Shown here: piece by piece, positions 4,241 to 59,939 of the stretch
Numbering within the stretch: the stretch's first letter is position 1
How the letters are laid out: every line of letters starts with the position of its first letter
Source of the DNA: Octopus vulgaris
Taxonomy: Eukaryota
DNA: 64,000 bases
Direction of reading: 5' to 3'
Assembly: GCA_951406725.2 (NCBI GenBank)
Contig: OX597823.1
Coordinates: 52,948,001 to 53,012,000, forward strand
Program-made: the position numbers and the translations under genes
The notes under the pieces: generated by a model
Databases searched by the model: none
What the model saw: only the letters and a program-made list of their open reading frames with translations
Told to the model about the DNA's origin: nothing

Positions 4241-4643
4241 ATTGATTTCATGTTTTGATACAACGCCAGCAAGTTTGTGGGAGGTATAAGTCGATTAGAT
4301 CTACCCCCAGTGCTCAACTGGTACTTATTTTATCGACCCCCAAAAGGATGAAAAGCAAAGTCGACCTTGGCGGAATTTGAACTCAGAATGTAAAGACGGA
4401 CAGAATACCTATTTCTTTACTACCCACAAGGGGATAAACACAGAGAGGACAAGCAAGGACAGACAAACGGATTAAGACGATTACATTGACCCCAGCGAAT
4501 AACTGGTACTTATCTAATCGACCCCTAAAGGATGAAAGACAAAGTCGACCTCGGCGGAATTTGAACTGAGAACATAGCGGCAGACGAAATACGGCTAAGC
4601 ATTTCGCCCGGCGTGCTAACGATTCTGCCAGCTCACCGCTTTA
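4241..4643 (-). mobile_element. SINE family B dimer (young-tail copy joined into an old-tail copy)
   Basis: Head ggcggtgagctggcagaatcgttagcacg, B-box gagttcaaattcc, central gcctttcatcctttcggggtcgataaa-type block (resembles the Meta/MESC SINE domain); internal junction ~4409. Confidence 0.85.
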
Positions 4644-6189: not shown

Positions 6190-6963
6190 TATTCATATTC
6201 CCCTTCACTGTTCACAACTTCTTGCCAAAGTTTCACTAGCTTTTCAAAGTCTTGACTCGAAGAATTCAGCGCGCCATGTTTTCAATTCCAAGTTGCTGGT
6301 GAACAGGACGCCTCGCAAACCGGTGGAAAGCGACTTGTAAAACGTGATAATCTGAAGTTGATGTATCAAGAAAATTCGTTGAGTGCAGTAGAGCTTCCCG
6401 ACTGAACTCTTGAATAACAATTTTTTTATCGAATTAGCGAGGTTGGGTGTACGTTGTCGTGTTGAAGAAGCCCGCCCTGTCGCCGGCGGCCAGCCGGCTC
6501 GTTTGGACCTTTACCATCCAGTGAATGCGATGGATGACGGCACCATGAGAGCATCCTATCGCTGAATTAATTCTATAGTGGATTGATGAGGATTCTCGTG
6601 GATGAGCTCGTTCAGTTGATCCTCATTGAACTGAACAAGTCGGTCGGAACTCGTAGAGTCTTAGCGGTAGAATTTCCCCTCTCTGAAGCGTAAAGACCAT
6701 TTGAGTGCAGCTCTTTCAGTAATAGAGCATTCTCTTTTCACAACACAAACGTGTAGAGCGGATTTAGCAGCTTCTGAACCTTGATTGAAGAGATTTAAGT
6801 GTCGAAAATGCTCGCTATTTTTTTCTGTTTGACATTCCATTGTTATGTATTTGAAAACAGATAAAATTCATTCAAATTTCAAAATCGTAATGGCGATAAA
6901 AATATCGTTCGTGTTAATTCAAATAAGATTAGAATGTGAAAGAATTTATCTGACAAACCAATA
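6190..6963 (-). mobile_element. Mariner transposon relic with internally deleted, decayed transposase
   Basis: From ATG at 6840: MECQTEKNSEHFRH...ITERAALKWSLRFREGKF...FNEDQLNELIHENPHQST (HTH region), LQHDNVHP (cf. HDNARPH), SDYHV, and the C-terminal EKLVKLWQEVVNSEGEY. TIR-like tattggtttgtcagataaattc at 6942-6963. Confidence 0.85.
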
Positions 6964-7110: not shown

Positions 7111-7461
7111 CAGCAGCAGTAGTATTTTTCAGAAATAACAGAGAGACCCACAGTCTACAGTTTCATGCTAAACATTAATAAAAATATACATATACTCACA
7201 TTTCGAGTTTTATTTTTCCTGTTAGCATCAACATACCTATTTATATATTTATTTTATTTTTTCTTTTACTGGTTTCAGTCATTTGACTCAGGCCATGCTG
7301 GAGCACCGCCTTTAGTCGAACAAATAGACCGTAGGACTTATTCTTTGCAAGCCTTGTAATATTCTATCCGAACCGCTAAGTTACGGGGAGGTAAACACAC
7401 CAGCATTGGTTGTCAATCGTTGGTGGGGGGTAAAACACACAAATACATACATATATACATA

Positions 7462-7614
7462 TTTGAAACTGACTTATTGGAAGTCCACCTGAAGATTGTC
7501 GATCAAGACAAGAAACAATTGTAGTGGCGGTTTTTTTGACTATTTATTAAAATTTTATGTATTGATTAAGTCTTTCCTTGTTTGTTTTGCAAAATAGTGG
7601 TTTTGTCTCTAATA

Positions 7615-7620
<6 letters not shown>
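7462..7620 (+). mobile_element. Short hammerhead-bearing element (PLE-derived/retrozyme-like), copy 1
   Basis: ~160 bp flanked by TA repeats; aligns by eye to 54583-54746 over the ribozyme and the downstream attaaaattttatgtattgattaagtctttccttgttt...aaatagtggttttgtctc block. Confidence 0.75.
7485..7527 (+). ncRNA. Minimal type I hammerhead ribozyme
   Basis: CCAC-CTGAAGA-TTGTC-gatcaa-GACAA-GAAAC-AATT-GTA-GTGG: perfect helix I and helix II, intact core, palindromic helix III (ACAATTGT), NUH = GTA at 7521-7523. Confidence 0.85.
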
Positions 7621-7656
<36 letters not shown>

Positions 7657-7965
7657 GATACGACGGGCTTCTTTCACTTTCCGTCTGCCAAGTCTACTCA
7701 CAAGGCTTTGGTCGGTCCGAGGGTACAGTAGTAGACACTTACCTAAGGTGCCTAGTAGAGGAACTTAGCCCCTGAACCCGGAACCATGTTGTTGGTAAGC
7801 AAGCTTCTTACCACACAGCTACTCCTGCCCCTATATATATATATACATATATATATGTATTTATATGTATGTATATATGGATGCATATGTATGTATGGAT
7901 GTATGTATGTACGTACGTACACATGTATGTATGCATATACATGCATATATATATATATATATACA

Positions 7966-12597: not shown

Positions 12598-12973
12598 ACG
12601 TATATATACTCATACTTTGAATTCTATTTTTCCTGTTTGTATCACCAAATGTATATGTGTGTATGTGTGTGTATGTGTGTGTTTAAGTGTAAATATGTAT
12701 GGATATATATGAGTGTTTGTATATTATATGCATATATGTGTGTGTATACACACACACGTATATATTTTATCTTTTACTTACTGCTTACGGGGCACCGCCT
12801 TCGTTTTTCATCCGTAAAAACAAGAACATTTGTAACGTAGTATTGGGGAACACACACACAAATGCACACGCACACGCACGCACACATACACACACACGCA
12901 CATACACACACACATTGTAAAAGAATATTAAAAAGTGGAGTTAACATAATGCGTTTATTCCTCAGTTTACAAT

Positions 12974-13219
12974 TGTTTCATTAACTTCAATTAAGCCAAT
13001 CTTACATCATGCCATTGCTATGCCACAATTACTTATCACCATGTACTATGGAATACTTTCATGATGGCCGGCCTTACTGAACCCTGCTATAAAGCAGTAA
13101 ACCGAGTTGACTTCGGCATGGGTTGTCATGAAAAGATTCCACAGTACATGGAGATAAACCAGTGGCTGTTGACAGCGATGGTATGACGCAAGATTGGTTT
13201 AATTGAAATTAATGAAACA
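12974..13219. repeat. ~245-bp imperfect hairpin bounded by hammerhead-like flanks
   Basis: tgtttcattaacttcaattaagccaatctt...ccatgtactatggaatactttcatga pairs with tcatgaaaagattccacagtacatgg...aagattggtttaattgaaattaatgaaaca; the minus strand has GAAAC-AATT-GTA at 12979-12968. Confidence 0.8.
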
Positions 13220-13446
13220 GAAACTAATGAAACTAAGTAACACACATAGTTAGCTGACTCCATTCTTCGATATTCTTGTATTATATAAGAACTCATGATG
13301 CTTTGTGGATTTTCTGGTTACTGGTGCACTGATATCCTGTGAAACATTCCCACATTTCAACTTTCAGAGAATCACCATCCGTTTCAGAGCTTCATATGTT
13401 AAATGCATGGATTACACATCTCAATCCACCTCTTCTCTCTCATTTT

Positions 13447-15963: not shown

Positions 15964-16032
15964 ATGATATTTTTATAATAAAAGAAACATGAATATCACA
16001 AGAAACATCCTTTATATATTTTGTATGTACAT

Positions 16033-16400
16033 ATAGGCGTAGGAGTGGTTGTGTGGTAAGTAGCTTGCTAATCAACCACATGGTTCCGGGTTCAGTCCCA
16101 CTGCGTGGCACCTTGGTTAAGTGTCTTCTACTATAGCCTCGGGCCGACCAAAGCCTTGTGAGTGGATTTGGTAGACGGAAACTGAAAGAAGTACGTCGTA
16201 TATATGTATATATACATATATATGTGTGTTTGTGTATCTGTGTTTGTCCCTCCAACATCGCTTGACAAAAAAAGAGACCGATAAAATAAGTACTAGGCTT
16301 ACAAAGAATAAGTCCTGGGATCGATTTGATCGACTAAAGGCGGTGCTCCAGCATGGCCACAGTCACATGACTAAAACAAGTAAAAGAGTAAAAAAGAGTA
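16033..16400 (+). mobile_element. SINE family A, well preserved
   Basis: ggcgtaggagtggttgtgtggtaag...gggttcagtcccactgcgtggcaccttgg...; tail aacaagtaaaagagtaaaa. Confidence 0.9.
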
Positions 16401-20295: not shown

Positions 20296-20389
20296 CTAAT
20301 TTTGGTGCCTATTTCCTAATACTAGAAACATTTATAGACATGTTTGAGAAATATATAGTTTCATTTTTTTTTCTAAGATAATTATTCTT

Positions 20390-20605
20390 ATATTCTTTTA
20401 CCTGCTTCACTCATTAGATTGCGACCATACTGGGGCACCACTCCTGAAGAATTTCGCTCGAATGGATCGACCCCAGTACTTATTTTTTTAAAGTTTAATG
20501 TTTATTCTACCTTTTGCCGAACCGCTAAGTTACGGGTACATAAACACACCAAGATCGGTTGTCAAGCGATGGTGGAGGGACAAGCACAGACACAAACACA
20601 TAAAT

Positions 20606-20662
<57 letters not shown>

Positions 20663-21155
20663 CGATAGGCTTCTTTCAGTTTCCGTCTACCAAATCCACT
20701 CACAAGGCTTTAGCCGGCCCGAGGTTATAGTAGAAGACCTGAACCCGGAACCATGTCGTTGGAATATTTTTTTATTGTTTTACTAGTTTCAGTCATTTGA
20801 CTCCGGCCATGCTGGAGCACTGCCTTAAGTCGAACAAATCGACCCCAGGACTTATTGTTTGTAAGCCTAGCACTTATTCTATCGGCCTTATTTGCCGAAC
20901 CGCTATATTACGGGGACATAAACACACCAGCATCGGTGTCAAGTGATGGTGGGAGGACTAACACTGACGCACAAATATATATATATAATATACGACGGTT
21001 TCTTCCAGTTTCCGCCTACCAAATCCACCCACAAGGCTTTGGTTGGCCCAAGGCTGTAGTAGACGACACTTCCCCAAAGTGCGACGCAGTGAGACTGAAC
21101 CCGGAACTATGTGGTTGGGAAGAAATCTCCTTACCACACAGCCACTCCTGTGCCA

Positions 21156-21235
<80 letters not shown>

Positions 21236-22052
21236 ATGTATGTATGTATGTATGTTCGTATGTTCAGTTGGATTGAACCACGCACCATGCGGTTGGGAAG
21301 CAAACGTCTTACTACAAGACCGCGCGAGCGCCTTATTAGGTACGTGTTGCAAAATCCATGCTTAAAAAATCCAAGGTCAACGAAATAATATATGAGAATG
21401 ATCTAACAATAGTTATATAACCTATTATTGCTGTTTTCTAGAACGTACCTATGTCTGTCCTTTGAGGTAAACAGACAATATTTATTGGTTATGTAACATT
21501 CCAGTGTTATTTCTTACTTTCTCTTTTCTTTTCTGCACAACTTTATAAGCATTTAGAATTGGTGTGTTTTATAACTGCTACGTTTCTGCTTTATTATTTT
21601 TTTTTCAGAAAAATGATGCTATACCTATTATATGGTATATGGTGATATATACTCTTTTACTCTTTTACTTGTTTCAGTCATTTGACTGCGGCCATGCTGG
21701 AGCACCGCCTTTAGTCGAGCAAATTGACCCCGGGACTTATTCTTTGTAAGCCCAGTACTTATTCTATCGGTCTCTTTTGCCGAACCGCTAAGTGACGGGG
21801 ACGTAAACACACCAGCATCGGTTGTCAAGCAATGCTAGGGGGACAAACACAGACACACAAACATATATACACACCCACTTATATATATATACATATATAC
21901 GATAGGCTTCTTACAGTTTCCGTCTACCAAATCCACTCACAAGGCATTGGTCGGCCCGGGGCTATAGCAGAAGACACTTGCCCAAGATGCCACGCAGTGG
22001 GACTGAACCCGGAACCATGTGGTTGGTTAGCAAGCTACTTACCACACAGCCA
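20390..22052 (-). mobile_element. Cluster of same-orientation SINE A copies (~20390-20763, 20775-21155, 21270-21332 partial, 21652-22052)
   Basis: Repeated gtttcagtcatttgactgcggccatgctggagcac and ccgtctaccaaatccactcacaagg blocks. Confidence 0.85.
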
Positions 22053-22695
22053 TCTTTTTTCTTCTACTTATTTCAATCCCGGACATAGATACTACCCAGT
22101 AGGAAAACTTGCCAGTGATATATTATAAAAGCGTGTTTCTTTTTTGGCTGATGAATTTGTTCAGGAACGAGCAAGAAGAAAAGGGATATATCTTTGCTTC
22201 ACGGAATGTGGCTGGTTTTAGACCGAGCTCCAAAAATTGCTGAAGTCCTTGACTGATGCGTACACCAGTGTACCTTCCATTGATCAGGTAACAAACAAAA
22301 CTGTCTGCAATTTGGGATCGCGATCAAGGACAGACAGCTGGCAATGAAAATACGACAGACGCCTGCTTATAGGCGTAATGTGGTGACTTCTGTAAGGCAA
22401 AGCTCTCAGAACTTCGAGATGTTTCTAAATGCCTGTGTCTTAACTCACTTTATCCTTTGATGCCAATGTTCACTTCCTCACTTCTAGTTTTCCAAGTATG
22501 CTTTGAAATTCTTGTGCCGATGCAGTTAACTTCCGAATAAGTGTTTTATAAGCTGAATATCGCATGCTGATGGGGGAGATATCAGTATGGTATCCGAGAC
22601 GTTTTCAAAGCATTTACCTATTACGTGTTAAGGTTCTATGAGATTCGATATCTGATCCCTTTACTTTACATTCGCTTATAATATTTTTACGCTTG

Positions 22696-23667: not shown

Positions 23668-25096
<1,429 letters not shown>

Positions 25097-28372: not shown

Positions 28373-28442
28373 GGAGTGAGAGACAAAGAGAGAGAGATAA
28401 TATTAGGGATTTAGTTCACTTGTGATCTAAACGAATAGGTAA

Positions 28443-28775
28443 CGAAGTCGACTTTGCCTTTCATCCTTTCGGGGTCGATAAATAAAGTACCAGTTACGCA
28501 CTGTGGTCGATGTAATCGACTTAATCCGTTTGTCTGTCCTTTTTTGTCTCTTCTATGTTTAGCCCCTTGTGGGCAATAAAGAAATAGGTATTTCGCCTGC
28601 TGCTACGTTCTGAGTTTAAATTCCGCCAAGGTCGACTTTGCCTTTCATCCTTTCGGGGTCGATTAAATAAGTACCAGTTACGCACTGGGGTCGATATAAT
28701 CGACTTAATCTGTTTGTTTGTCCTTGTTTGTCCCCTCTGTGTGTAGCCCATTGTGGGCAGTAAAGAAATAAGAAA
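28443..28775 (+). mobile_element. SINE B dimer, 5'-truncated
   Basis: Two body+tail units joined at aaagaaata|ggtatttcg (~28586). Confidence 0.88.
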
Positions 28776-29096
28776 TCTTATGTAGTTGCGAGTGGTGATG
28801 TCGATATTTAGTTTTGATCTAGCAGCTCTATAATCGAAAGCATTCCAGCCATGGAATGAGATTTAGGAGTTTGTAAGATTACATTATCTCGTATGCACAT
28901 TCCTTATACAAGATAGTACTGCGTAATCTGAAATAAATTAAACTACTATTTTTAGCAGTTCGTATAACTAGGAGCTCTTGCCATCACTTCAGCTCATACT
29001 AGTGTACGCTCTGCTCAAATCTTTATATATTAAGACCTTCAAAAATGCAGAAGAGGCCAACAACAAAAGGAAAAAATGTGGTCTACTAGTGATAAT

Positions 29097-29900: not shown

Positions 29901-30539
29901 AAACATGTGTAGAGACATTCATTGTCTTTTTGTTTCGTTTCTTTCTCATTTTTGTTACTTTTTTTTATTTTTGAATAAATGCTACGATAAACTATGATGA
30001 ATGGGGAGGAAACAATCAGTTTAATTAAGTCCTAGCTCCATATACAGGATTTTCCTTTTAGTGTGTGGCATTTAATCAGCTGATAGTTGGTAAAACACTG
30101 AAAAAGACTTTTTGACGTTTAGTGATAACACGTTCAAAATGATAGCGAGAGAAAGAGTTGATTTTTTTTTTCCTAATTGCTTGACTAATTAGTATAATAA
30201 AAAAGAATATATAAAGTAACATTGTCATGTGGGTGAAGAAATGAATTCATAAACCAGTCTATACAAGCTTTCAAATAAGACAGTATCAGTTCTGAGTGTA
30301 ATTATTGTTGCTGTTGTTGCTGTCGTTGTCGTTGTTGTTGTTGTTGTTGTTTATCCAAGGTATATCTCTGATGGAGCAGAGAGACTCTATGGCATGTAAA
30401 GAGTTGGTGGAATCATTAGGCGTGATTCATAAATCCGTAGCGCCGAATATTCCACGCCACCGTTTAGCTGAGGACCACAATGCACATTCTCACCTGCAGT
30501 CGTTAATTGCACTTAATGCAAGTGCTGCAGTGTGGGTAT

Positions 30540-30950
30540 GATTACCCGGAATGTTACTGCATATCTGTAGATTCTTGTAGTTGTGTCATCGGAAGAGTGC
30601 AAGATGAACTCCGCTCGAACACGTCAGCTGCTTCGTCGGGTGCAGTCGTACTGCCACATGATGCGTCTTTGTTTTGCAGTGCTTCTCCGCCGATTTTTGC
30701 GATGGCTGAAACGATAAAGGTGTTCGGCGCTGAAGTGCTCCCTTGTCTCCTGTATGCCGCGGGATGCATGGCCCTCTACCGCAGGTGCATCAAGGCCCTA
30801 ATGCAAGTTCAACGCCGTCAACTGCTCTCCATCTTGCATGTCAGATGGCAAGATCACATTCTTCATATAGAGGATCTGCATCGCGCTGGCGCAGTGTTAG
30901 TATGTAGGACTTCACATGCGGGCCTGTTAGACTACGACGGACAGCCGAAA
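30540..30950 (+). mobile_element. RTE-clade LINE fragment (C-terminal of RT)
   Basis: TIKVFGAEVLPCLLYAAGCMALYRRCIKALMQVQRRQLLSILHVRWQDHI matches the RTE-type pattern TKIxVYxAxVLPxLLYGxETWxLYxxxxxxLxxFxxRCLRxILxIxWQD. Confidence 0.75.
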
Positions 30951-30964
30951 AAGAATATATACAT

Positions 30965-31029
<65 letters not shown>

Positions 31030-31037
<8 letters not shown>

Positions 31038-32814: not shown

Positions 32815-33362
32815 TGGATACTTGTCGATTACATCGACCTCAGTGTTTCGCTGGAAGTTAATTTATCGACTCAGAAAGGATGAAAGGAAAAGTCAACCTC
32901 AGCGGAAATTGAACTCAGGACCGTAACGCCAGACGAAATACCTATTTCTATTTCTTTACTACCCACAAGGGGCTAAGCACAGAGGGGACAAACAAGGACA
33001 GACAAACGGATTAAGTCGATTATATCGACCCCAGTGCGTAACTGGTACTTATTTAATCGACCCCGAAAGGATGAAAAGCAAAGTTGATCTCGGTGGAATT
33101 TGAACTCAGAACGTAGCGGCAGACGAAAAAACTATTTCTTTACTACCCACAAGGGGCTAAACACAGAGGGGACAAGTTAGGACAGAGAAACGGATTAAGT
33201 CAATTACATCGACCCCAGTAACTGGTACTTAATTTATCGATCCCGAAAGGATGAAAGGCAAAGTCGACCTCGGCGGAATTTGAACTCAGTACGTAACGGC
33301 AGACGAAATACCGCTAAGCATTTCGCCCGGCGTGCTAGCGATTCTGCCAGCTCGCTACCTTA
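32815..33362 (-). mobile_element. SINE B array: one head, three bodies
   Basis: Junctions at ~33132 and ~32942 join tail (gtaaagaaata) to body (g[gt]tatttcgtctg-like). Confidence 0.9.
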
Positions 33363-35752: not shown

Positions 35753-36910
35753 TGCATGTATGCATGTATGTATGTATGTGCAGATTTGTGTTTTCTGTAT
35801 GCATTCTCATGCATATAGTTGCATATCTAGACATTCTCATATATATTTAAATGATAAACTTCTGGAAAGTTTTACAGATTTTTACAGTTCCAGTGATGGA
35901 TTGGATATGTGGTCTTCGAATTAGCTTTCTCCTTTCTGGTTTTGAGAAGCCTAATTTCTCAAGATTGTTATCTAGGCAGTGTATTACTTATCCCATGGCT
36001 CCAATAATTACAGGTATAATCTGGATAGAGTAGCTGCAGATTTCTCAATAGTTCAGCATAGGTGTTCTCTTTTTCACTGATCTTCAGCTTTATGTTAACA
36101 TCTGCTGGGCAGTTAATTTCCACAACTGTGCACAGTTTCTCTTCTCTATTACAAATTATTATATCAGGTCTGTTATGCTTACATTTTATTGAGGTCTTGA
36201 GTGGTACATTCCACCAGTATTCCTTTTCATTATGAGTGGCTATCGCTTCTACCATATTGTGGGGTTTTATTTCTTTTTCCTCGGGATTATCCTTTCGGCG
36301 GATTTCATTTAGAGTGCCCTAGCTACAACGTCATGTCTCATCGGCAGATAGAACCACGATGACATTTCGGACAACTGCTTATGATGTGGGTGATATCTTC
36401 AGTGTGAACTCCACAAAAATATGCATCGATTGTCACATTTTACTGCTTTTCCTGCATCTCTATCCCTTTTATGCATCAGGTATTTGGTTGATATTTCCTG
36501 TTCATGGATTGCAAATGCATACCCTTCAAAATGGGAGGTAGTAATCCGGCTATTGGTCCATGATAAACTATTTTGATGATCGATGTTACTATCACCACGG
36601 AGCATTCTACTGACATGTCTAAGCATAGTCTTCTGTTCATATACGGTCATCTTTTCAGCTGATGATACGTTGCGGTAGAGTCGTACAACTTCTTTGGGCA
36701 TGTATTCTAGGTTATCAGGCAAAGAGTGTTGCTCAAGGAGCTGCCTTCCAAGTCTTATGATGTTATCAGTCTCATGTATGGTTAAGGGATATCCTTCGAC
36801 ACTTGGCGGTTAGAAGATGTTGCCGAAGGGATATGACGCGACATTCAAAGGCATTTTGGATTGATTTTAAGCCTCTGCCGCCTTGTTTTTGTTTTAGGTA
36901 GAGGCAGTCT
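35569..36910 (-). mobile_element. 5'-truncated R4-type RLE LINE inserted in (TATG)n
   Basis: EGYAFAIHEQEISTKY, CCHC knuckle (C..CGVHTEDITHIISSC; RHD), HNRPDIII...VVEINCPADVNIKLKISEKENTYAEL, ending CKTFQKFII*; frameshifted; 3' UTR contains (CATA)n; TATG repeats on both flanks. Confidence 0.88.
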
Positions 36911-36960: not shown

Positions 36961-37024
36961 CTATACATGTAGGTACGTGTTTATGTATTTATGTATAAAT
37001 GCCTATTTGAAAAACCTATTTTAT

Positions 37025-37420
37025 TATTCTTTTACTCTTTTATTTGTTTCAGCCATTTGACTGCGGCCATGCTGGAGTACTGCCTTTAGTCGAACAAATC
37101 GACCACAGGGCTTATTCTTTGTAAGCCTAGTACTTATTATGTCTTCCTCTATTGCCGAACTGCTAAGTTACGGAGACATAAACACACCACTATCGGTTGC
37201 CAAGCGAGTGGGGTGGGCAAACACAGAGACACAAATACAAACATACATATATATATATATACGACGTGCTTCTTTCGGTTTCCGTCTACCAAATTCACTC
37301 ATAAGGCTTTGGTCAGCCCGAGACTACAGTAGAAGACACTTGCCCAAGGTGCCACGCAGGGACTAAACCCGGAGCCATGCGGTTAGAAAGCAAGCGTCTT
37401 ACCTCACAACCACGCCTGCG
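37025..37420 (-). mobile_element. SINE family A
   Basis: Full set of family A blocks in reverse. Confidence 0.88.
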
Positions 37421-40667: not shown

Positions 40668-42465
40668 TACATTCGTGCATATATCAGATGTAAAGTTTAT
40701 GTCAAAAGTTTCCCAGTGTCTTTTCCGTCTTTCTATGTCTGCCTCACTTTGTTCAGACCCAACCTTTGTTTCATTCACATTCTCATACATCGCATGTATA
40801 TATAAGCTTGTATGAAAATACAAATGTGTAATGTTTATTTGCAAATGCGTATGTTAAAAGTCTATATCGATATACATACATAAGTACACATACCTGAATA
40901 TATCCATACATATACGTATGTACGTATGTATTTTGTATTTTGTTTGCTTCTTTACCGCAGTCGTGTAAATATTTGAATGTTATAAACATGGAACTCAACT
41001 AATAAAATAATACTTCTCCTATTTTGGGACTTTAATTTGGCCTCTTTGGCCCCGTGCACATCTTTTGTTTGTTATGGAAGAAACTTACGGCAAATATTTA
41101 CGTCTCTATAACTTTTCAGGTTTGCTCTGGCAAAGTAAATATGTTACACGCGTCATTTTCTATTTTTTTTTATATATATATATTGTTTGGTTCATGTAAG
41201 TGTCTATATTTATCCATCACTATCCACTTGTAGACAAAAGTATAGACTCTAGTTATAAAAGTGTATAATTCTGTATTAAATTGTTGTTGTATTCACGTGT
41301 GGATATATTTGCTTGCAGAAATTTCAACGAGTCTTTTTTATATTTTTATTGACCTTCGACATAGAAGGATTGGTTGGTGAATGAAAATGGCAGAAATCAA
41401 AAGTCATTTTGTGTAAATTCATTGATTTGTTGTTGGCCTGACTTTCAAGCAGCTTCAGTTTTCTTTTTGATGAAAAGCAGACAATATCTCGGCTCTATCC
41501 GTGACACACAAATGTGTCCTTTTTTATGCAATAAATGAGCAAATCGAGGAGATTATGAGAAAATATATGAGAAAAAGATTTCCCGTATTGCAATTTTCTC
41601 TTTTATTTCTTTGTTATACAGATATTTCTTCCTTTCTTCCGATAAGTCAAAGAAAATAAGAAAGAGAAAAAGTGTTAAAAAGGGCAGAAAAAAAGGGAAG
41701 GAGTTAAAGTTCAACCACAAATCATTTATAAGTTCTTGTTATCAGTAAAGATTTAAGGTTTTCCATTGGACCAGATAGTCTCATTTATCATATAATTTTG
41801 TGCCCCTTGAATGTTTCTACTTATAGAATCTTCTCTGTATAAATTATTCTTCCTTTATTTGAATATTTGCCACAAGATAAGGCTATGAGTTAGGCAAAAC
41901 GAAATGCCCTCGGACTAAATTCCTTACAGTATTTATCTTAGACATCCTCTGTTCTCAGTTTGAATCTCACTAAGGTCAGTATAGGTATAAAATTATCCGT
42001 TGCGGTTTCGTTCAGTGATTTACACTACCTCTATATAAGTTAGTGTTAAGATAGTGTTAGTATATTTAATATGATATGAATTAAGTAATCTAAGTAAAAT
42101 TACTAATGCGGTGAGGAAGTGACATAAGTGACTAATATTACTTTAACCATTTAAAACATTGAAAACAGATACATCCGCTCGAAATTTTATTATCATTAAC
42201 TGCTGAAAGCGGTTTTTAACCGTCCACTTTCAAACAAATTCCCTCCTTATGCTACAAGAAGAGGAGACACACCCAGTGACACTTTTATTAAGCGGCGGCC
42301 GCGTGGTAAGAAGCTTGCCTCCGAACCACATGGTTCTGGATTTAGTCTTACTGTGTGACACATGGGTAAGTGTCCTCTACTATAGCCCCAGGCCAACCAG
42401 AGACTTGTGAGTTGATTTGGTAGACGGAAACTGAAATAAGTCCGTCATAGATATATATATATATA

Positions 42466-43620
42466 TCATCATCTTAGTCAGGTGTCGCCCTATGCGATGC
42501 TGTGGTCTTGCCACCTTCTCCTGTCCTCTACCCAATGGACAGCTGAGAATAAAGACAATCCTGTGGCTGCGATGTCTTTCAGCCAAGAAGTGGGTGGTCT
42601 GCGTCTTTTACGTCTGCCATTCACCTTGCCAGTTATGATCGTTCGCTCAAGTCCATCCCGGCGCATGACGTGGCCAGAGAACCGTAGCTTCCGCATCATG
42701 ATGTTTTGCCGAAGCGTCATCTCGCAACCGAGCTTTTCTAGTACCCAGTTGTTCGTCCTTCTCTCCGTCCAAGTCACTCTAAGGATTCTGCGGTAACACC
42801 ACATTTCAAAAGCGCTCACTCTTTTCTCGTCTGCCTTCAACATTGTCCACGACTCACAGCTGTACGTCGCAATAGAGACAGCAGCAGCCCGAAGTAGCCT
42901 TATCAGCTGTCGAAGAGCGTAGACTCGAAACGTAAAAGACTTTTTCTATTCCTGAGCGCTATACTAATACATTTGTTTGTTTGTACTCCACCTGCCTTCG
43001 TCTTTTGTTTATTTTCGTAAACTTTCCCTTTATCTTCAGCAGCATTGACACGCCACGACTCTTCCAGATGTTCTCCATATCTTGCACCGCTTGCCTCGCT
43101 GTCGCGAGCCTCCTCTGTATCTCTGGTGTACTTGATCCACTGGTGTTGATTTTGGATCCCAAGTACACAAAATCATCTACTTACCTCGGTCTGTCCTGTA
43201 CTTATGCACCACCAAGACCTTTGACTTCTTTACATTCAGGAATAGGTCACTTTGTGCACTCATGTCTTTCACTTTGCGTATCATCTGCAGCAATTCGTCC
43301 TTGCTGTTACTTATGAAGGTTGTGTCATCGGCCTATCTCAGATTGCACAGCCTTTCTCCGCCAATCTGCACACCAACATTGTAGTTCTACACCATTCTTA
43401 TGATGTTTTCTGCATAGATGTTGTACAGATATGGAGACAGAACACATCCCTGTCGGATACCTCTCTCAATGTCAAACAACTCAGTGTCACCGACGGACAT
43501 CCTGACAGATGACTGTTGATCTTGATATAGTCGCACCAACAGTGCGACTAAGTGTTCAGAAAATCCCATGTCTTCATGACGTCCCAGAGCTTGCTGTATC
43601 TCACACAGTCGAACGCACGT
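42466..43620 (-). mobile_element. RTE-clade (BovB-like) LINE, 5'-truncated and decayed
   Basis: AFDCV (RT3), GIRQGCVLSPYLYNIY (RT4), NLR*ADDT (YADD mutated to stop), YLGS..EIQRRLA (RT7), AFEMWCYRRILRVTWT..GHVMRR..GKVNGRR; short (gat)n tail at ~42466. Confidence 0.93.
42905..43029 (+). mobile_element. Short element with a hammerhead-like motif, inserted in the RTE ORF
   Basis: Splits RTE codons LKI|RLL; ttatc duplicated at 42900-42904 / 43030-43034; CTGTCGA-A-GAG-cgtaga-CTC-GAAA-CGTA at 42907-42934; homologous to 56713-56915. Confidence 0.8.
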
Positions 43621-43733
43621 AAATAATATATATATGCATATATACATGCATACATGTACATACCTACATATATATGTATATACACATGCATATATGGGTA
43701 CAGGACGTCAAACGTGAACAACATGAAAAACGA

Positions 43734-53429: not shown

Positions 53430-53975
53430 TAAAACTTAGATAAAACTTAGATATGTTTCGACCAAAGATTGGCCCAGGCCATGTCTAACTTAATAGCACC
53501 ACCTGATAGGATTATCTAAATCCTGTTTAAGTCAAGTTTTGTTTATGGTCCATTCAAGTAGTGAGTTTTTGTTGGGTGAGTTGTATCCAATTATGGGTGG
53601 CTTATCTGGTATTCCTTGAAGGAATCTATCCAGACTTCGTTTAAAGTTGATGGGATCCTTTTCCTCTTTGATCTCTTTCGGGACAATGTTAAATAGGGCA
53701 GGGCCTGTTGAAGAAAAGAAATTATGTTGCAGTGTACATGTATGCTGTGATCTTGAATTGGGCAGGGGACGTATGGCCCGTGGTCCCAGTCTTGGATGAA
53801 CCTTGAAGCTAATGTTCAGGTCGTTTGGGCAAAGTTGGCGGTATATTCTCCACATCGTACAAATGATGTACCGCTCACGGCGACGCTGGAGAGAGTAGAG
53901 TTTCAAGGCTTTAAGGCGGTCCCAATAATCGAGAGCCTTCAATTCGTTTAGTGATTCAATCCTCGAGATGTTTTG
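53430..53975 (-). mobile_element. 3' end of a CR1-group (CR1/L2/Crack-like) LINE
   Basis: LDYWDRLKALKLYSLQRRRERY..FFSSTGPALFNIVP..FKRSLDRFL (ORF 53532-54014), short 3' UTR with a stem-loop and a (tatctaagttt)x2 tail. Confidence 0.88.
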
Positions 53976-54489
53976 TCTTGTATGGGGAGAAGTATTCGAG
54001 GTGTGGCCGTACAAAGGAGACGTTGCTGGATAATTTTTCGTTCTCTTAAGAATATTGTAGAACGGAAACTTTTCATAGATTGAAATTTATTGTTTCAAGA
54101 AAACATTGAATTTGAATTACTTTTAATTTTTACGATTATAGATAACAACTCGGGCTTTAACTTCTGTGACCGAGTCAGGCGCGTGTGAACGATATCGAGA
54201 GAACGTCTGCTACAAACGATATTTTTTGACACAGGGCAACTTTAAGACGACCGCCGAACGAAAATAAATGAACTGCGACCAGGGTCAATAAAATGAGACC
54301 TAGTTATTGGCTGCAATACATACTTGAAGTCAGTGTTGGCAGAAATTAAAATTAAATTTATACTCGAGCTAAGCCCGGAACAGCCAGAGTGCCGGTGACG
54401 CCACTGTTATATATATATATATATAATAATAAATATTAGGGAATGAATCCAAAATTACAGGGAAAAAATCAGATTTAGGGTTACACACA

Positions 54490-54855
<366 letters not shown>

Positions 54856-55064
54856 TGTGTGTCTGTGTGTAAACGTAAACAAACGAACTTTGCTTTAGAA
54901 GCGTTGAGATGTCTTAGAAAGTTAAAGAAGTTATTTTAAGTTTTCAAACGCATGATAATGCTAATAATATAACCTGAACAGGATAAGCTACCCCTATTTT
55001 GTAGAAAAAAGTGTTGGCGGCCGGCTATGAGACACGAACACACACCTCCGTGATTACACGCCTC

Positions 55065-59633: not shown

Positions 59634-59939
59634 ATATGTATATATATATATATATAACATAAGGGACTAAAGCCATCTGAATATGCTAGGGACAGATCAC
59701 CATGTAGTGGGGGTGTTACTGTTGCATTTAGCCCCAGGCGAACATCGACGTCACCAGAAAGGCTCGACACCGTCACGGTGCCCTCGAGCCTTTCTGGTGA
59801 CGTCGATGTTCGCCTGGGGCTAAATGCAACAGTAACACCCCCACCACCCTGCCCTGTCCCTAGCCATATTCAGATGGCTTTAGTCCCTTATGTTATCGAG
59901 CAGTTACTGTCTATATCCCTTTTAGAGAATTATTATTGC

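What the first reader, a model, noticed from the sequence alone, without database searches (positions are those of the whole stretch)
7462..7620. Microsatellite-embedded mini-element family carrying an intact minimal hammerhead ribozyme (sister copy at 54583-54746)
Seen: two ~160-bp homologous inserts 47 kb apart, each flanked by TA repeats. Both contain CCAC-CTGAAGA-(T)TGTC-loop-GACA(A/T)-GAAAC-A(A/T)TT-GTA-GTGG. Helices I/II and the catalytic core are conserved while loop II differs (gatcaa vs ggtagca), as expected under selection on RNA structure. Copy 1 has a palindromic helix III (ACAATTGT). Established: Penelope-like elements and retrozymes carry minimal type I hammerheads whose short palindromic helix III supports dimeric cleavage. 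Inference: a non-coding, ribozyme-bearing retroelement family, or solo PLE terminal repeats, mobilised into (TA)n. If the region is intronic, these could cleave the host pre-mRNA.
Basis: partly seen in the sequence, partly recalled or inferred. Interest (0 to 1): 0.8.

Follow-up and report, generated by a model that had tools for sequence, protein, structure and literature searches.

The report
Hammerhead-bearing Penelope retroelement end fragments
The two 160-base inserts are real copies of a repeated element with a hammerhead self-cutting RNA motif, most likely clipped tail ends of a known kind of jumping gene (Penelope-like) dropped into TA repeats; cutting is untested, and the family's RNA shows signs of heavy editing.

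Summary
Confirmed. Two copies (7460-7620, 54583-54746; 87.7% identical over 146 columns) each hold a complete type I hammerhead with a predicted cut after A7523 / A54651. Copy 1 is a true insertion in the microsatellite of a SINE-like repeat; 4 of 4 paralogues aligned lack it. Public runs show a many-copy family (836, 458 and 762 contigs laid in three large runs) with Penelope-like (PLE) footprints: an optional 3' tail in three organisms, inverted 5' junctions, no head-to-tail joints. The core layout matches 14 of 26 published Hydra-clade hammerhead rows. Best reading: 3' (pLTR) ends of a Hydra-like PLE or its non-coding derivative, copied from uncut RNA; the ribozyme would act as a dimer in tandem precursors, and lone copies are likely inert. 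Not shown: a linked RT/GIY-YIG ORF, covariation (0 of 12 pairs), an Rfam match, cleavage, or an intronic position. Extra: RNA-type contigs carry A-to-I-like hyper-editing on both strands, including core A15.1. This scan noted the same kind of element before on other DNA of this genome (other families). Known kind; low to modest interest.

The parts
7460..7620 (+). Element copy 1 (non-coding, 29% GC; longest stop-free frame 34 codons)
   Evidence: absent from 4 of 4 paralogues of the host repeat
7460..7484 (+). 5' leader, variable between subfamilies; found inverted at 5' junctions in 2 RNA-type contigs
   Evidence: 18 of 30 columns; X9 loose ends before 7481 and 7530
7485..7527 (+). Type I hammerhead: helix I 7485-88/7524-27, C3-A9 7489-95, helix II 7496-7500/7507-11, G12-A15.1 7512-15, palindromic helix III 7515-22, predicted cut after A7523
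   Evidence: sequence
7528..7620 (+). AT-rich 3' region; 7545-7584 identical in both copies; conserved terminal motif near 7598-7609
7621..7660 (.). (TA)n tract at the 3' junction
7245..7459 (+). Left half of the abundant ~400-bp SINE-like host repeat interrupted by copy 1
   Evidence: 79-82% to four paralogues
7655..7840 (+). Right half of the same host repeat
54583..54746 (+). Element copy 2 (second subfamily: different leader and loop II)
54612..54655 (+). Type I hammerhead of copy 2: 4-bp helix II flanked by U and U (Hydra-clade layout), helix III with two central U-U mismatches in a dimer, predicted cut after A54651
54474..54582 (.). Left flank: (AC)n then (TA)n; inverted partner of the right flank
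54740..54879 (.). Right flank: (TA)n then (TG)n; arms 54474-54561 / 54792-54879 are 97% complementary

Best explanation
The two inserts are copies of a many-copy, non-coding repeat with a type I hammerhead motif sitting in TA microsatellites, and they are most likely the clipped 3' (pseudo-LTR) ends of a Hydra-like Penelope retroelement or of a non-coding derivative that borrows its enzyme. Shown: homology, hammerhead anatomy, insertion into a microsatellite (empty paralogues), many copies in several organisms, an optional 3' tail, inverted 5' junctions, edited contigs of both strands. Inferred: a PLE RT/GIY-YIG protein nicks (TA)n DNA and starts reverse transcription at one of two sites near the RNA's 3' end, giving copies with or without the tail. 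It stops or switches strand after about 160 nt, giving truncation and inversions. Both window copies span the cut site intact, so their template was uncut or re-ligated RNA. The ribozyme would cut after GUA only when two motifs pair through the helix III palindrome, as in tandem precursors, perhaps with protein help. Lone copies read through in host transcripts are likely inert and are handled as double-stranded repeat RNA by ADAR.
For: Empty paralogues, 4 of 4. Many copies: 836 (X3), 458 (X11) and 762 (X1) contigs laid; 20 of 24 listed runs hold at least half of 11 sampled words, organisms A-F, 10 studies, 5 rows flagged as possible source. Tail: the same non-TA extension behind 54741-54750 in X1 (10 contigs), X17 (1) and X18 (1), absent from the window. 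Inverted junctions: 2 X9 loose ends are the reverse complement of the leader (by eye). A tail, an inverted 5'-truncated copy and 5' truncation are the PLE footprints in PMC8557442 section 6; tail origin by internal RT start in PMC11167929. Summed depth rises 5' to 3' (X3 1.6e5 at 7468-78 to 1.2e6 at 7556-66). Hydra layout: an extra U after A9 plus a U before GAA in 14 of 26 Hydra rows of File S2 (counted by eye); 25 of 27 Hydra families listed with (TA)n preference. Hammerhead about 30-105 nt from the 3' end in six Hydra consensi (by eye) vs about 90 nt here. Copy-1 dimer MFE (-24.0) holds all double-hammerhead pairs (-23.0 evaluated). The common variant A7517G (26 contigs in X3, 7 in X11) leaves a G-U pair in the palindrome.
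Against: No PLE ORF could be linked: no whole genome is held, no PLE RT or GIY-YIG hit in 150 of 297 ORFs, and three short motifs of the element have 0 matches in the PMC8557442 supplement (a fourth, shorter one has 1 match in an unrelated GC-rich consensus). Hydra-1_Obim has different helices. Both copies start 25-29 nt before helix I, and no strong DNA loose end runs upstream among the rows shown (20 of 60; 10 of 45); this fits a fixed short element better than random truncation. Helix III is 8 nt here vs 9-10 nt in the Hydra rows. Whether the U/U layout is specific to Hydra was not tested. The depth slope is confounded by leader divergence, and the tool warns it is no copy number. The copy-1 dimer energy gain is not beyond shuffles (127 of 500), and copy 2 does not prefer the double-hammerhead fold (-16.5 vs -20.6).
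Confidence: 0.6

Rival explanations
1. Partial monomers of a non-LTR retrozyme: a tandem non-coding unit longer than the 160 bp seen here (leader + hammerhead + 3' part + tail + more) is cut to monomers, circularised and copied into (TA)n by PLE enzymes.
For: The tail runs at least 64 nt (X17) and X10 contigs extend 68-145 nt upstream of 7476-7479, so a longer unit exists. Animal retrozymes of 220-390 nt are known (PMC7229834 passages) and derive from PLE pLTRs (bioRxiv 2026.07.22.740005). Unchecked notes report 359- and 485-nt families in this genome.
Against: No tandem copy in the window. No joints at all (4 runs), and only AT-repeat joints. This excludes only short units, because TA ends were masked and at most 40 letters between joint sides are shown.
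Confidence: 0.25
2. A self-standing ~160-nt mini-element with fixed ends, its own transcript and a working ribozyme that cuts in trans between RNAs of different copies.
For: Both copies and both X9 inverted junctions start at about the same 5' point. X1 depth falls from 3179 to 505 across 54583/54584. Core and stems are more alike than loop II and the leader. All 6 listed X1 changes inside the hammerhead (1 substitution, 5 indels) fall in loop II.
Against: No tRNA head or other promoter sign (0 genes). The 3' part is as conserved as the core (p 0.5). The table is visibly incomplete: it omits the known differences at 54639 and 54646. The hammerhead fold lies 2.4-3.0 kcal/mol above the free fold of the whole element.
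Confidence: 0.1
3. A MITE-like DNA transposon with short terminal inverted repeats inserted at TA; the hammerhead is a passenger.
For: The ends of copy 2 pair better than shuffles (-9.2 kcal/mol; 5 of 2000; boundaries chosen after seeing the sequence).
Against: Copy 1's ends do not (790 of 2000). The optional tail, inverted internal junctions and 5'-3' slope are retro-element traits.
Confidence: 0.03
4. A host-exapted ribozyme that cuts an intron or UTR of a host gene at these loci.
For: Family sequence is present in RNA-type runs, with editing on both strands.
Against: No host exon found. The copies are young members of a large family inside another repeat. Monomer activity is unlikely.
Confidence: 0.02

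Closest known systems
Hydra clade of C-terminal EN+ Penelope-like elements, e.g. Penelope-5_HM, Hydra-1_Crog, Hydra-1_Obim (Craig et al. 2021, PMC8557442; passages, sections 6 and 11, supplement parts 1, 2, 52, 53 of 59)
   Same: Sense-strand type I hammerhead 30-105 nt from the 3' end; extra U after A9 and U before GAA around a short helix II (14 of 26 rows); A at position 7 in several rows; (TA)n targets; tail and inverted 5' copy as PLE traits.
   Different: No ORF linked here; sequence matches none of the published consensi; helix III 8 nt vs 9-10 nt; copy 1's subfamily has A, not U, before GAA.
[quoted passage not shown]
   Same: Helix I of 4 bp, a possible unpaired base after A9, palindromic helix III region, mostly dispersed as single motifs from truncated PLEs; dimer-dependent, weak cleavage.
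   Different: No G10.1-C11.1 pair; helix II 4-5 bp vs 7-8 bp in the Schistosoma families; a short helix III is present.
Animal non-LTR retrozymes (Cervera and de la Pena 2020, PMC7229834, passages; Li, Clavereau, Pollet 2026, bioRxiv 10.64898/2026.07.22.740005, parts 1 and 3 of 5)
   Same: Non-coding, AT-rich, type I hammerhead, derived from PLE ends; solo monomers occur; a U-U mismatch at the base of helix II is known in an axolotl family.
   Different: No tandem unit seen; 160 bp is shorter than the 220-390 nt units; circular RNA untested.
Poseidon element of the green anole (Frangieh et al. 2024, PMC11167929; parts 1-2 of 4)
   Same: Gives the mechanism assumed here: nicking of AT-rich DNA, two internal RT start sites that define the tail, uncut RNA as main template.
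   Different: There the hammerhead overlaps the ORF start; here about 90 nt of non-coding AT-rich sequence follow it.

Membership tests
Type I hammerhead ribozyme | Core CUGANGA, GAAA and UH in order, with three helices and helix I open | tested here: met
   (23 of 24 cells paired)
Type I hammerhead ribozyme | Match to an Rfam hammerhead model | tested here: not met
   0 of 6 matches at E<=10; none in 150 of 234 rows shown; copy 2 was not scanned on its own
Type I hammerhead ribozyme | Compensatory base changes in helices | tested here: inconclusive
   0 of 12 pairs, but only 2 sequences; read tables incomplete
Type I hammerhead ribozyme | Mg2+-dependent self-cleavage after H17 | not testable with these tools
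   One X1 loose-end consensus (6 contigs, median 18 letters) starts its element-like part at the base after the predicted cut; a single hint only
PLE minimal hammerhead (PMC4209133) | G10.1-C11.1 closing pair of helix II | tested here: not met
   U-A in copy 1, U-U in copy 2
PLE minimal hammerhead (PMC4209133) | Palindromic 15.2-16.2 / loop 3 allowing a dimer | tested here: met
   Perfect 8-nt palindrome in copy 1 and double-hammerhead MFE; two mismatches in copy 2
EN+ Penelope-like element (Hydra clade) | Single ORF with PLE RT and C-terminal GIY-YIG upstream of the hammerhead | not testable with these tools
   No genome held; none in the window (150 of 297 ORFs); loose ends shown only to 30 letters
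EN+ Penelope-like element (Hydra clade) | Insertion into (TA)n | tested here: met
   2 of 2 copies; (TA)>=4 makes up 5.1% of the window; empty paralogues
EN+ Penelope-like element (Hydra clade) | Optional 3' tail of 30-40 bp | tested here: met
   Shared extension in X1, X17, X18; 16-64 letters seen
EN+ Penelope-like element (Hydra clade) | Inverted 5'-truncated copy at the 5' end | tested here: met
   2 contigs of one RNA-type run (X9); not seen among the DNA rows shown
EN+ Penelope-like element (Hydra clade) | High degree of 5' truncation | tested here: inconclusive
   Depth slope fits, but both window copies start at nearly one point
Non-LTR retrozyme | Head-to-tail tandem units, each with a hammerhead | tested here: inconclusive
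   None in the window and no go-back joints; longer units would escape this test
Non-LTR retrozyme | Monomeric linear and circular RNA | not testable with these tools
   Only contigs were available
MITE | Terminal inverted repeats in all copies | tested here: not met
   1 of 2 copies

The most novel reading that the evidence does not exclude
A fixed-length, PLE-mobilised mini-element whose many scattered copies cut only when two transcripts from different loci pair through the helix III palindrome, with ADAR editing (seen at core A15.1 and across the element on both strands) acting as the host's off-switch: RNA editing as defence against a dispersed, dose-dependent ribozyme.
Probability: 0.1. 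Interest if true: 0.65.

Novelty: new member of a known kind. Interest (0 to 1): 0.27.

Why it matters
As a PLE end fragment it is ordinary: thousands of such solo hammerheads per genome are in print for other animals (PMC4209133), and an octopus Hydra element with a hammerhead is published. It adds a young, many-copy family that my searches did not find described (the repeat library behind PMC13282606 is on Zenodo, was not seen, and may hold it). It is a convenient test case: a 43-nt motif with natural variants (perfect, wobble and mismatched palindrome) for testing dimer cleavage, and with edited transcripts for asking whether A-to-I editing silences genomic ribozymes. If the novel case held, it would tie the very high editing of octopus repeats to control of catalytic RNA.

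Tried and rejected
Whole genome: not held, so no copy count, 5'-end survey or ORF linkage. Rfam: no hammerhead hit. Metagenome scan with an 18-mer: 20 loci, all with only 18-22-nt matches; rejected as chance. Monomer and whole-element folds are no more stable than shuffles (z 0.23 to 1.04, 4 of 4). Pairing of the hammerhead with the conserved 3' block looked like an inhibitory fold but is not beyond shuffles (147 and 169 of 1000). Dimer energy gain not beyond shuffles (127 of 500). One contig each of X9 and X10 begins at 7524, the base after the cut, but such ~60-nt contigs begin at many places; rejected as evidence of cleavage. No RNA holder is on record; X9 and X10 are guessed RNA. X13 gave 1 contig on copy 2 and added nothing. 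X11 loose ends look like a library linker (recalled, not from a call) and were ignored. Joints 54587-54591 to 54740 in X1 are AT-repeat artefacts in my reading. Earlier-findings look-ups by sequence, near and relatives returned nothing. Lunse et al. 2017 (PMC5785218) is not held; I know it only as cited in PMC6765202. The bacterial promoter scan does not apply to an animal. A protein search with a Hydra ORF was left out, because none lies in the window or in a fetched locus.

Full report
Observation. Both inserts are present as described. They align at 87.7% over 146 columns (E 1e-45) and have no third copy in the window. Each holds a complete type I hammerhead: helix I CCAC/GUGG, core CUGAAGA, a 4-5 bp helix II, GAAA, a short helix III and a GUA triplet, with the cut predicted after A7523 and A54651 by the standard rule (established knowledge). 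A descriptor finds only these 2 of 24 core words; shuffles give 0.11 hits on average and at least one hit in 21 of 200. Rfam does not recognise the motif.

Conservation. Core and stems are identical at 35 of 37 columns, loop II at 3 of 7, the 5' leader at 18 of 30 and the 3' region at 76 of 85, with a 40 of 40 block. The excess over loop and leader is significant (p 0.003 and 0.0007); that over the 3' region is not (p 0.5). No pair covaries (0 of 12). In run X1 all 6 listed changes inside the hammerhead lie in loop II, but that table omits known subfamily differences, so it is weak support. Selection on the ribozyme is plausible, not shown.

It is an insertion. The DNA on both sides of copy 1 is one abundant ~400-bp SINE-like repeat. 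Four of four paralogues aligned have only a short CA/TA tract where copy 1 sits; they are 79-82% identical to the host copy. Copy 2 lies between (AC)n(TA)n and (TA)n(TG)n. (TA) runs of four or more units make up 5.1% of the window. The window is repeat-rich animal DNA. I take it as octopus-like from recalled repeat sequence and from unchecked earlier notes; no call proves this.

The family outside the window. No genome is held. Of 24 runs listed, 20 hold at least half of 11 sampled words, across organisms A-F and 10 studies; 5 rows may be the source of this DNA. I laid 8 of the 24. On copy 1, 836 contigs of X3, 458 of X11, 30 of X9 and 29 of X10 were laid; on copy 2, 762 of X1, 5 of X17, 5 of X18 and 1 of X13. 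Many alignments are 99% or more alike (436 of 836 in X3), so the family is young and has many copies; the tool's depth is no copy number and I give none. Three footprints point to Penelope-type mobilisation. First, a shared non-TA tail follows the 3' end in X1 (10 contigs), X17 and X18, and is absent from the window. Second, two X9 contigs join an inverted copy of the leader to a plus-strand copy starting at 7481 or 7530 (by eye). Third, summed depth climbs from 5' to 3'. These traits are given for PLEs in PMC8557442 section 6. One search lists no joints, so no short head-to-tail arrays were seen. Six X10 contigs extend 68-145 letters upstream of 7476-7479, so longer relatives exist; only 30 letters are shown and I could not tell UTR from tandem unit.

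Which PLE. Earlier notes pointed me to the Hydra clade, which I checked in the supplement of PMC8557442. In File S2, 14 of 26 Hydra rows have an extra U after A9 and a U before GAA around a short helix II (by eye), exactly copy 2's layout; so its U-U is a family trait, not damage. 25 of 27 Hydra families are listed with (TA)n preference. The hammerhead lies about 30-105 nt from the 3' end in six consensi and about 90 nt here. Against: helix III is shorter here, the published octopus element Hydra-1_Obim has other helices, three motifs of our element do not occur in that supplement, and I did not test whether other clades share the layout. No PLE protein domain was found in 150 of 297 filtered ORFs; the hits were an RVT_1 fragment at 43390-43707, a Mos1 HTH at 6664-6867 and four weak ones. 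It works like a Hydra-type PLE end; membership is unproven.

How the ribozyme would act. As a monomer, copy 1's hammerhead fold (-5.9 kcal/mol) lies above the MFE (-7.5). Two copy-1 53-mers have an MFE (-24.0) that holds all double-hammerhead pairs (-23.0 evaluated); copy 2 prefers another fold (-16.5 vs -20.6). The gain on dimerising is not beyond shuffles (127 of 500). In the whole element the hammerhead helices have pair probability 0.05 or less. The common variant A7517G keeps a G-U pair. In print, single minimal PLE hammerheads did not cleave and dimers did so weakly (PMC4209133); the anole element's hammerhead needed its protein, was dispensable for insertion in vitro, and uncut RNA was the main template (PMC11167929); 8 of 9 Xenopus retrozyme dimers did not cleave. 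Both window copies span the cut site intact, which fits an uncut template. One X1 loose-end consensus starts its element-like part at the base after the cut, a single hint that cut RNA is sometimes copied. I infer that lone copies are mostly inert.

Editing. In X10 all 12 listed changes are A>G (6) or T>C (6); in X9, 4 of 10 are A>G. Nine places with such changes have zero depth in both DNA-type runs, among them A7515 (A15.1 of the core; 2 contigs in X9, 1 in X10). Three X10 loose ends are, by eye, the element itself heavily converted: behind 7554, 12 of 17 T read C and 0 of 13 other letters differ; behind 7590, 7 of 10 A read G, plus one change to the copy-2 letter; behind 7530, 9 T>C in the first 24 letters, with 2 other differences at the end. 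This is the signature of ADAR hyper-editing on both strands (PMC5625713 passages, which also name octopus as extreme). Caveats: the runs are guessed RNA, from other individuals, low-depth contigs, two studies, no silent control stretch laid; they speak for the family, not these loci. Hyper-editing of repeats is ordinary; editing of a genomic hammerhead core I did not find in print (3 papers listed, none on this by title or abstract start).

Verdict. A real hammerhead-bearing, PLE-mobilised repeat family: a new member of a known kind. Best reading PLE 3' end fragments (0.6), then partial retrozyme monomers (0.25), a fixed mini-element (0.1), MITE (0.03), host exaptation (0.02). Papers seen: PMC8557442 (passages, sections 6 and 11, supplement parts 1, 2, 52, 53 of 59 and two term searches); PMC4209133 (parts 1-2 of 4); PMC11167929 (parts 1-2 of 4); bioRxiv 10.64898/2026.07.22.740005 (parts 1 and 3 of 5, supplements not seen); PMC13282606 (parts 1-2 of 3; reports 31 recently active Penelope-like families in Octopus vulgaris; library not seen); PMC7229834, PMC6765202, PMC5625713 (passages). 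Interest 0.27.

Noticed in passing
window 59654-59896: A 243-bp, GC-rich, near-perfect foldback (arms of 32 nt at 100% and 64 nt at 98%; -208 kcal/mol, z -29) starting at the end of a (TA)n tract next to a half of the same SINE-like repeat. MITE or head-to-head retroelement end; a strong dsRNA source if transcribed.
   Followed up: partly
window 54474-54561 / 54792-54879: The microsatellite arms around copy 2 are 97% complementary over 88 nt, including non-repeat outer letters, so a transcript would put copy 2 in the loop of a long hairpin.
   Followed up: partly
window 12918-13280: An imperfect ~360-bp inverted-repeat element (arms 46 and 32 nt, 87-88%) that holds a GAAAC-palindrome-GUA word like helix III on the minus strand, without the first core half (11 bits).
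   Followed up: partly
window 7245-7840, 16030-16400, 20378-20738, 20765-21165, 21650-22055, 37020-37420 and more: An abundant ~400-bp SINE-like repeat with an internal CA/TA microsatellite that serves as a landing site for other insertions. A second abundant repeat family at 4287-4640, 28440-28780, 32824-33353 and elsewhere forms partial 180-bp tandems.
   Followed up: partly
window 35968-36809 (-): Broken ORF pieces that look like the C-terminal end of a restriction-like-endonuclease non-LTR element (R4/Dong type); motif reading recalled, no Pfam hit.
   Followed up: no
window 42440-43707 (-), 30507-31037 (+), 53532-54086 (-): LINE-like ORF remnants; RVT_1 hit at 43390-43707 (E 8.8e-05, below cut-off); the RTE and CR1/L2 labels for the others are recalled only.
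   Followed up: no
window 6664-6867 (-): Mariner transposase fragment (HTH_48, E 7.3e-05).
   Followed up: no
window 23901-24934: A (TA)n tract of about 517 units, 96% pure, between halves of the SINE-like repeat.
   Followed up: no
run X10, loose ends before window 7476-7479: Six contigs with a different, longer upstream sequence (68-145 letters) that differ among themselves partly by T/C: longer relatives, possibly the link to the parent element.
   Followed up: partly
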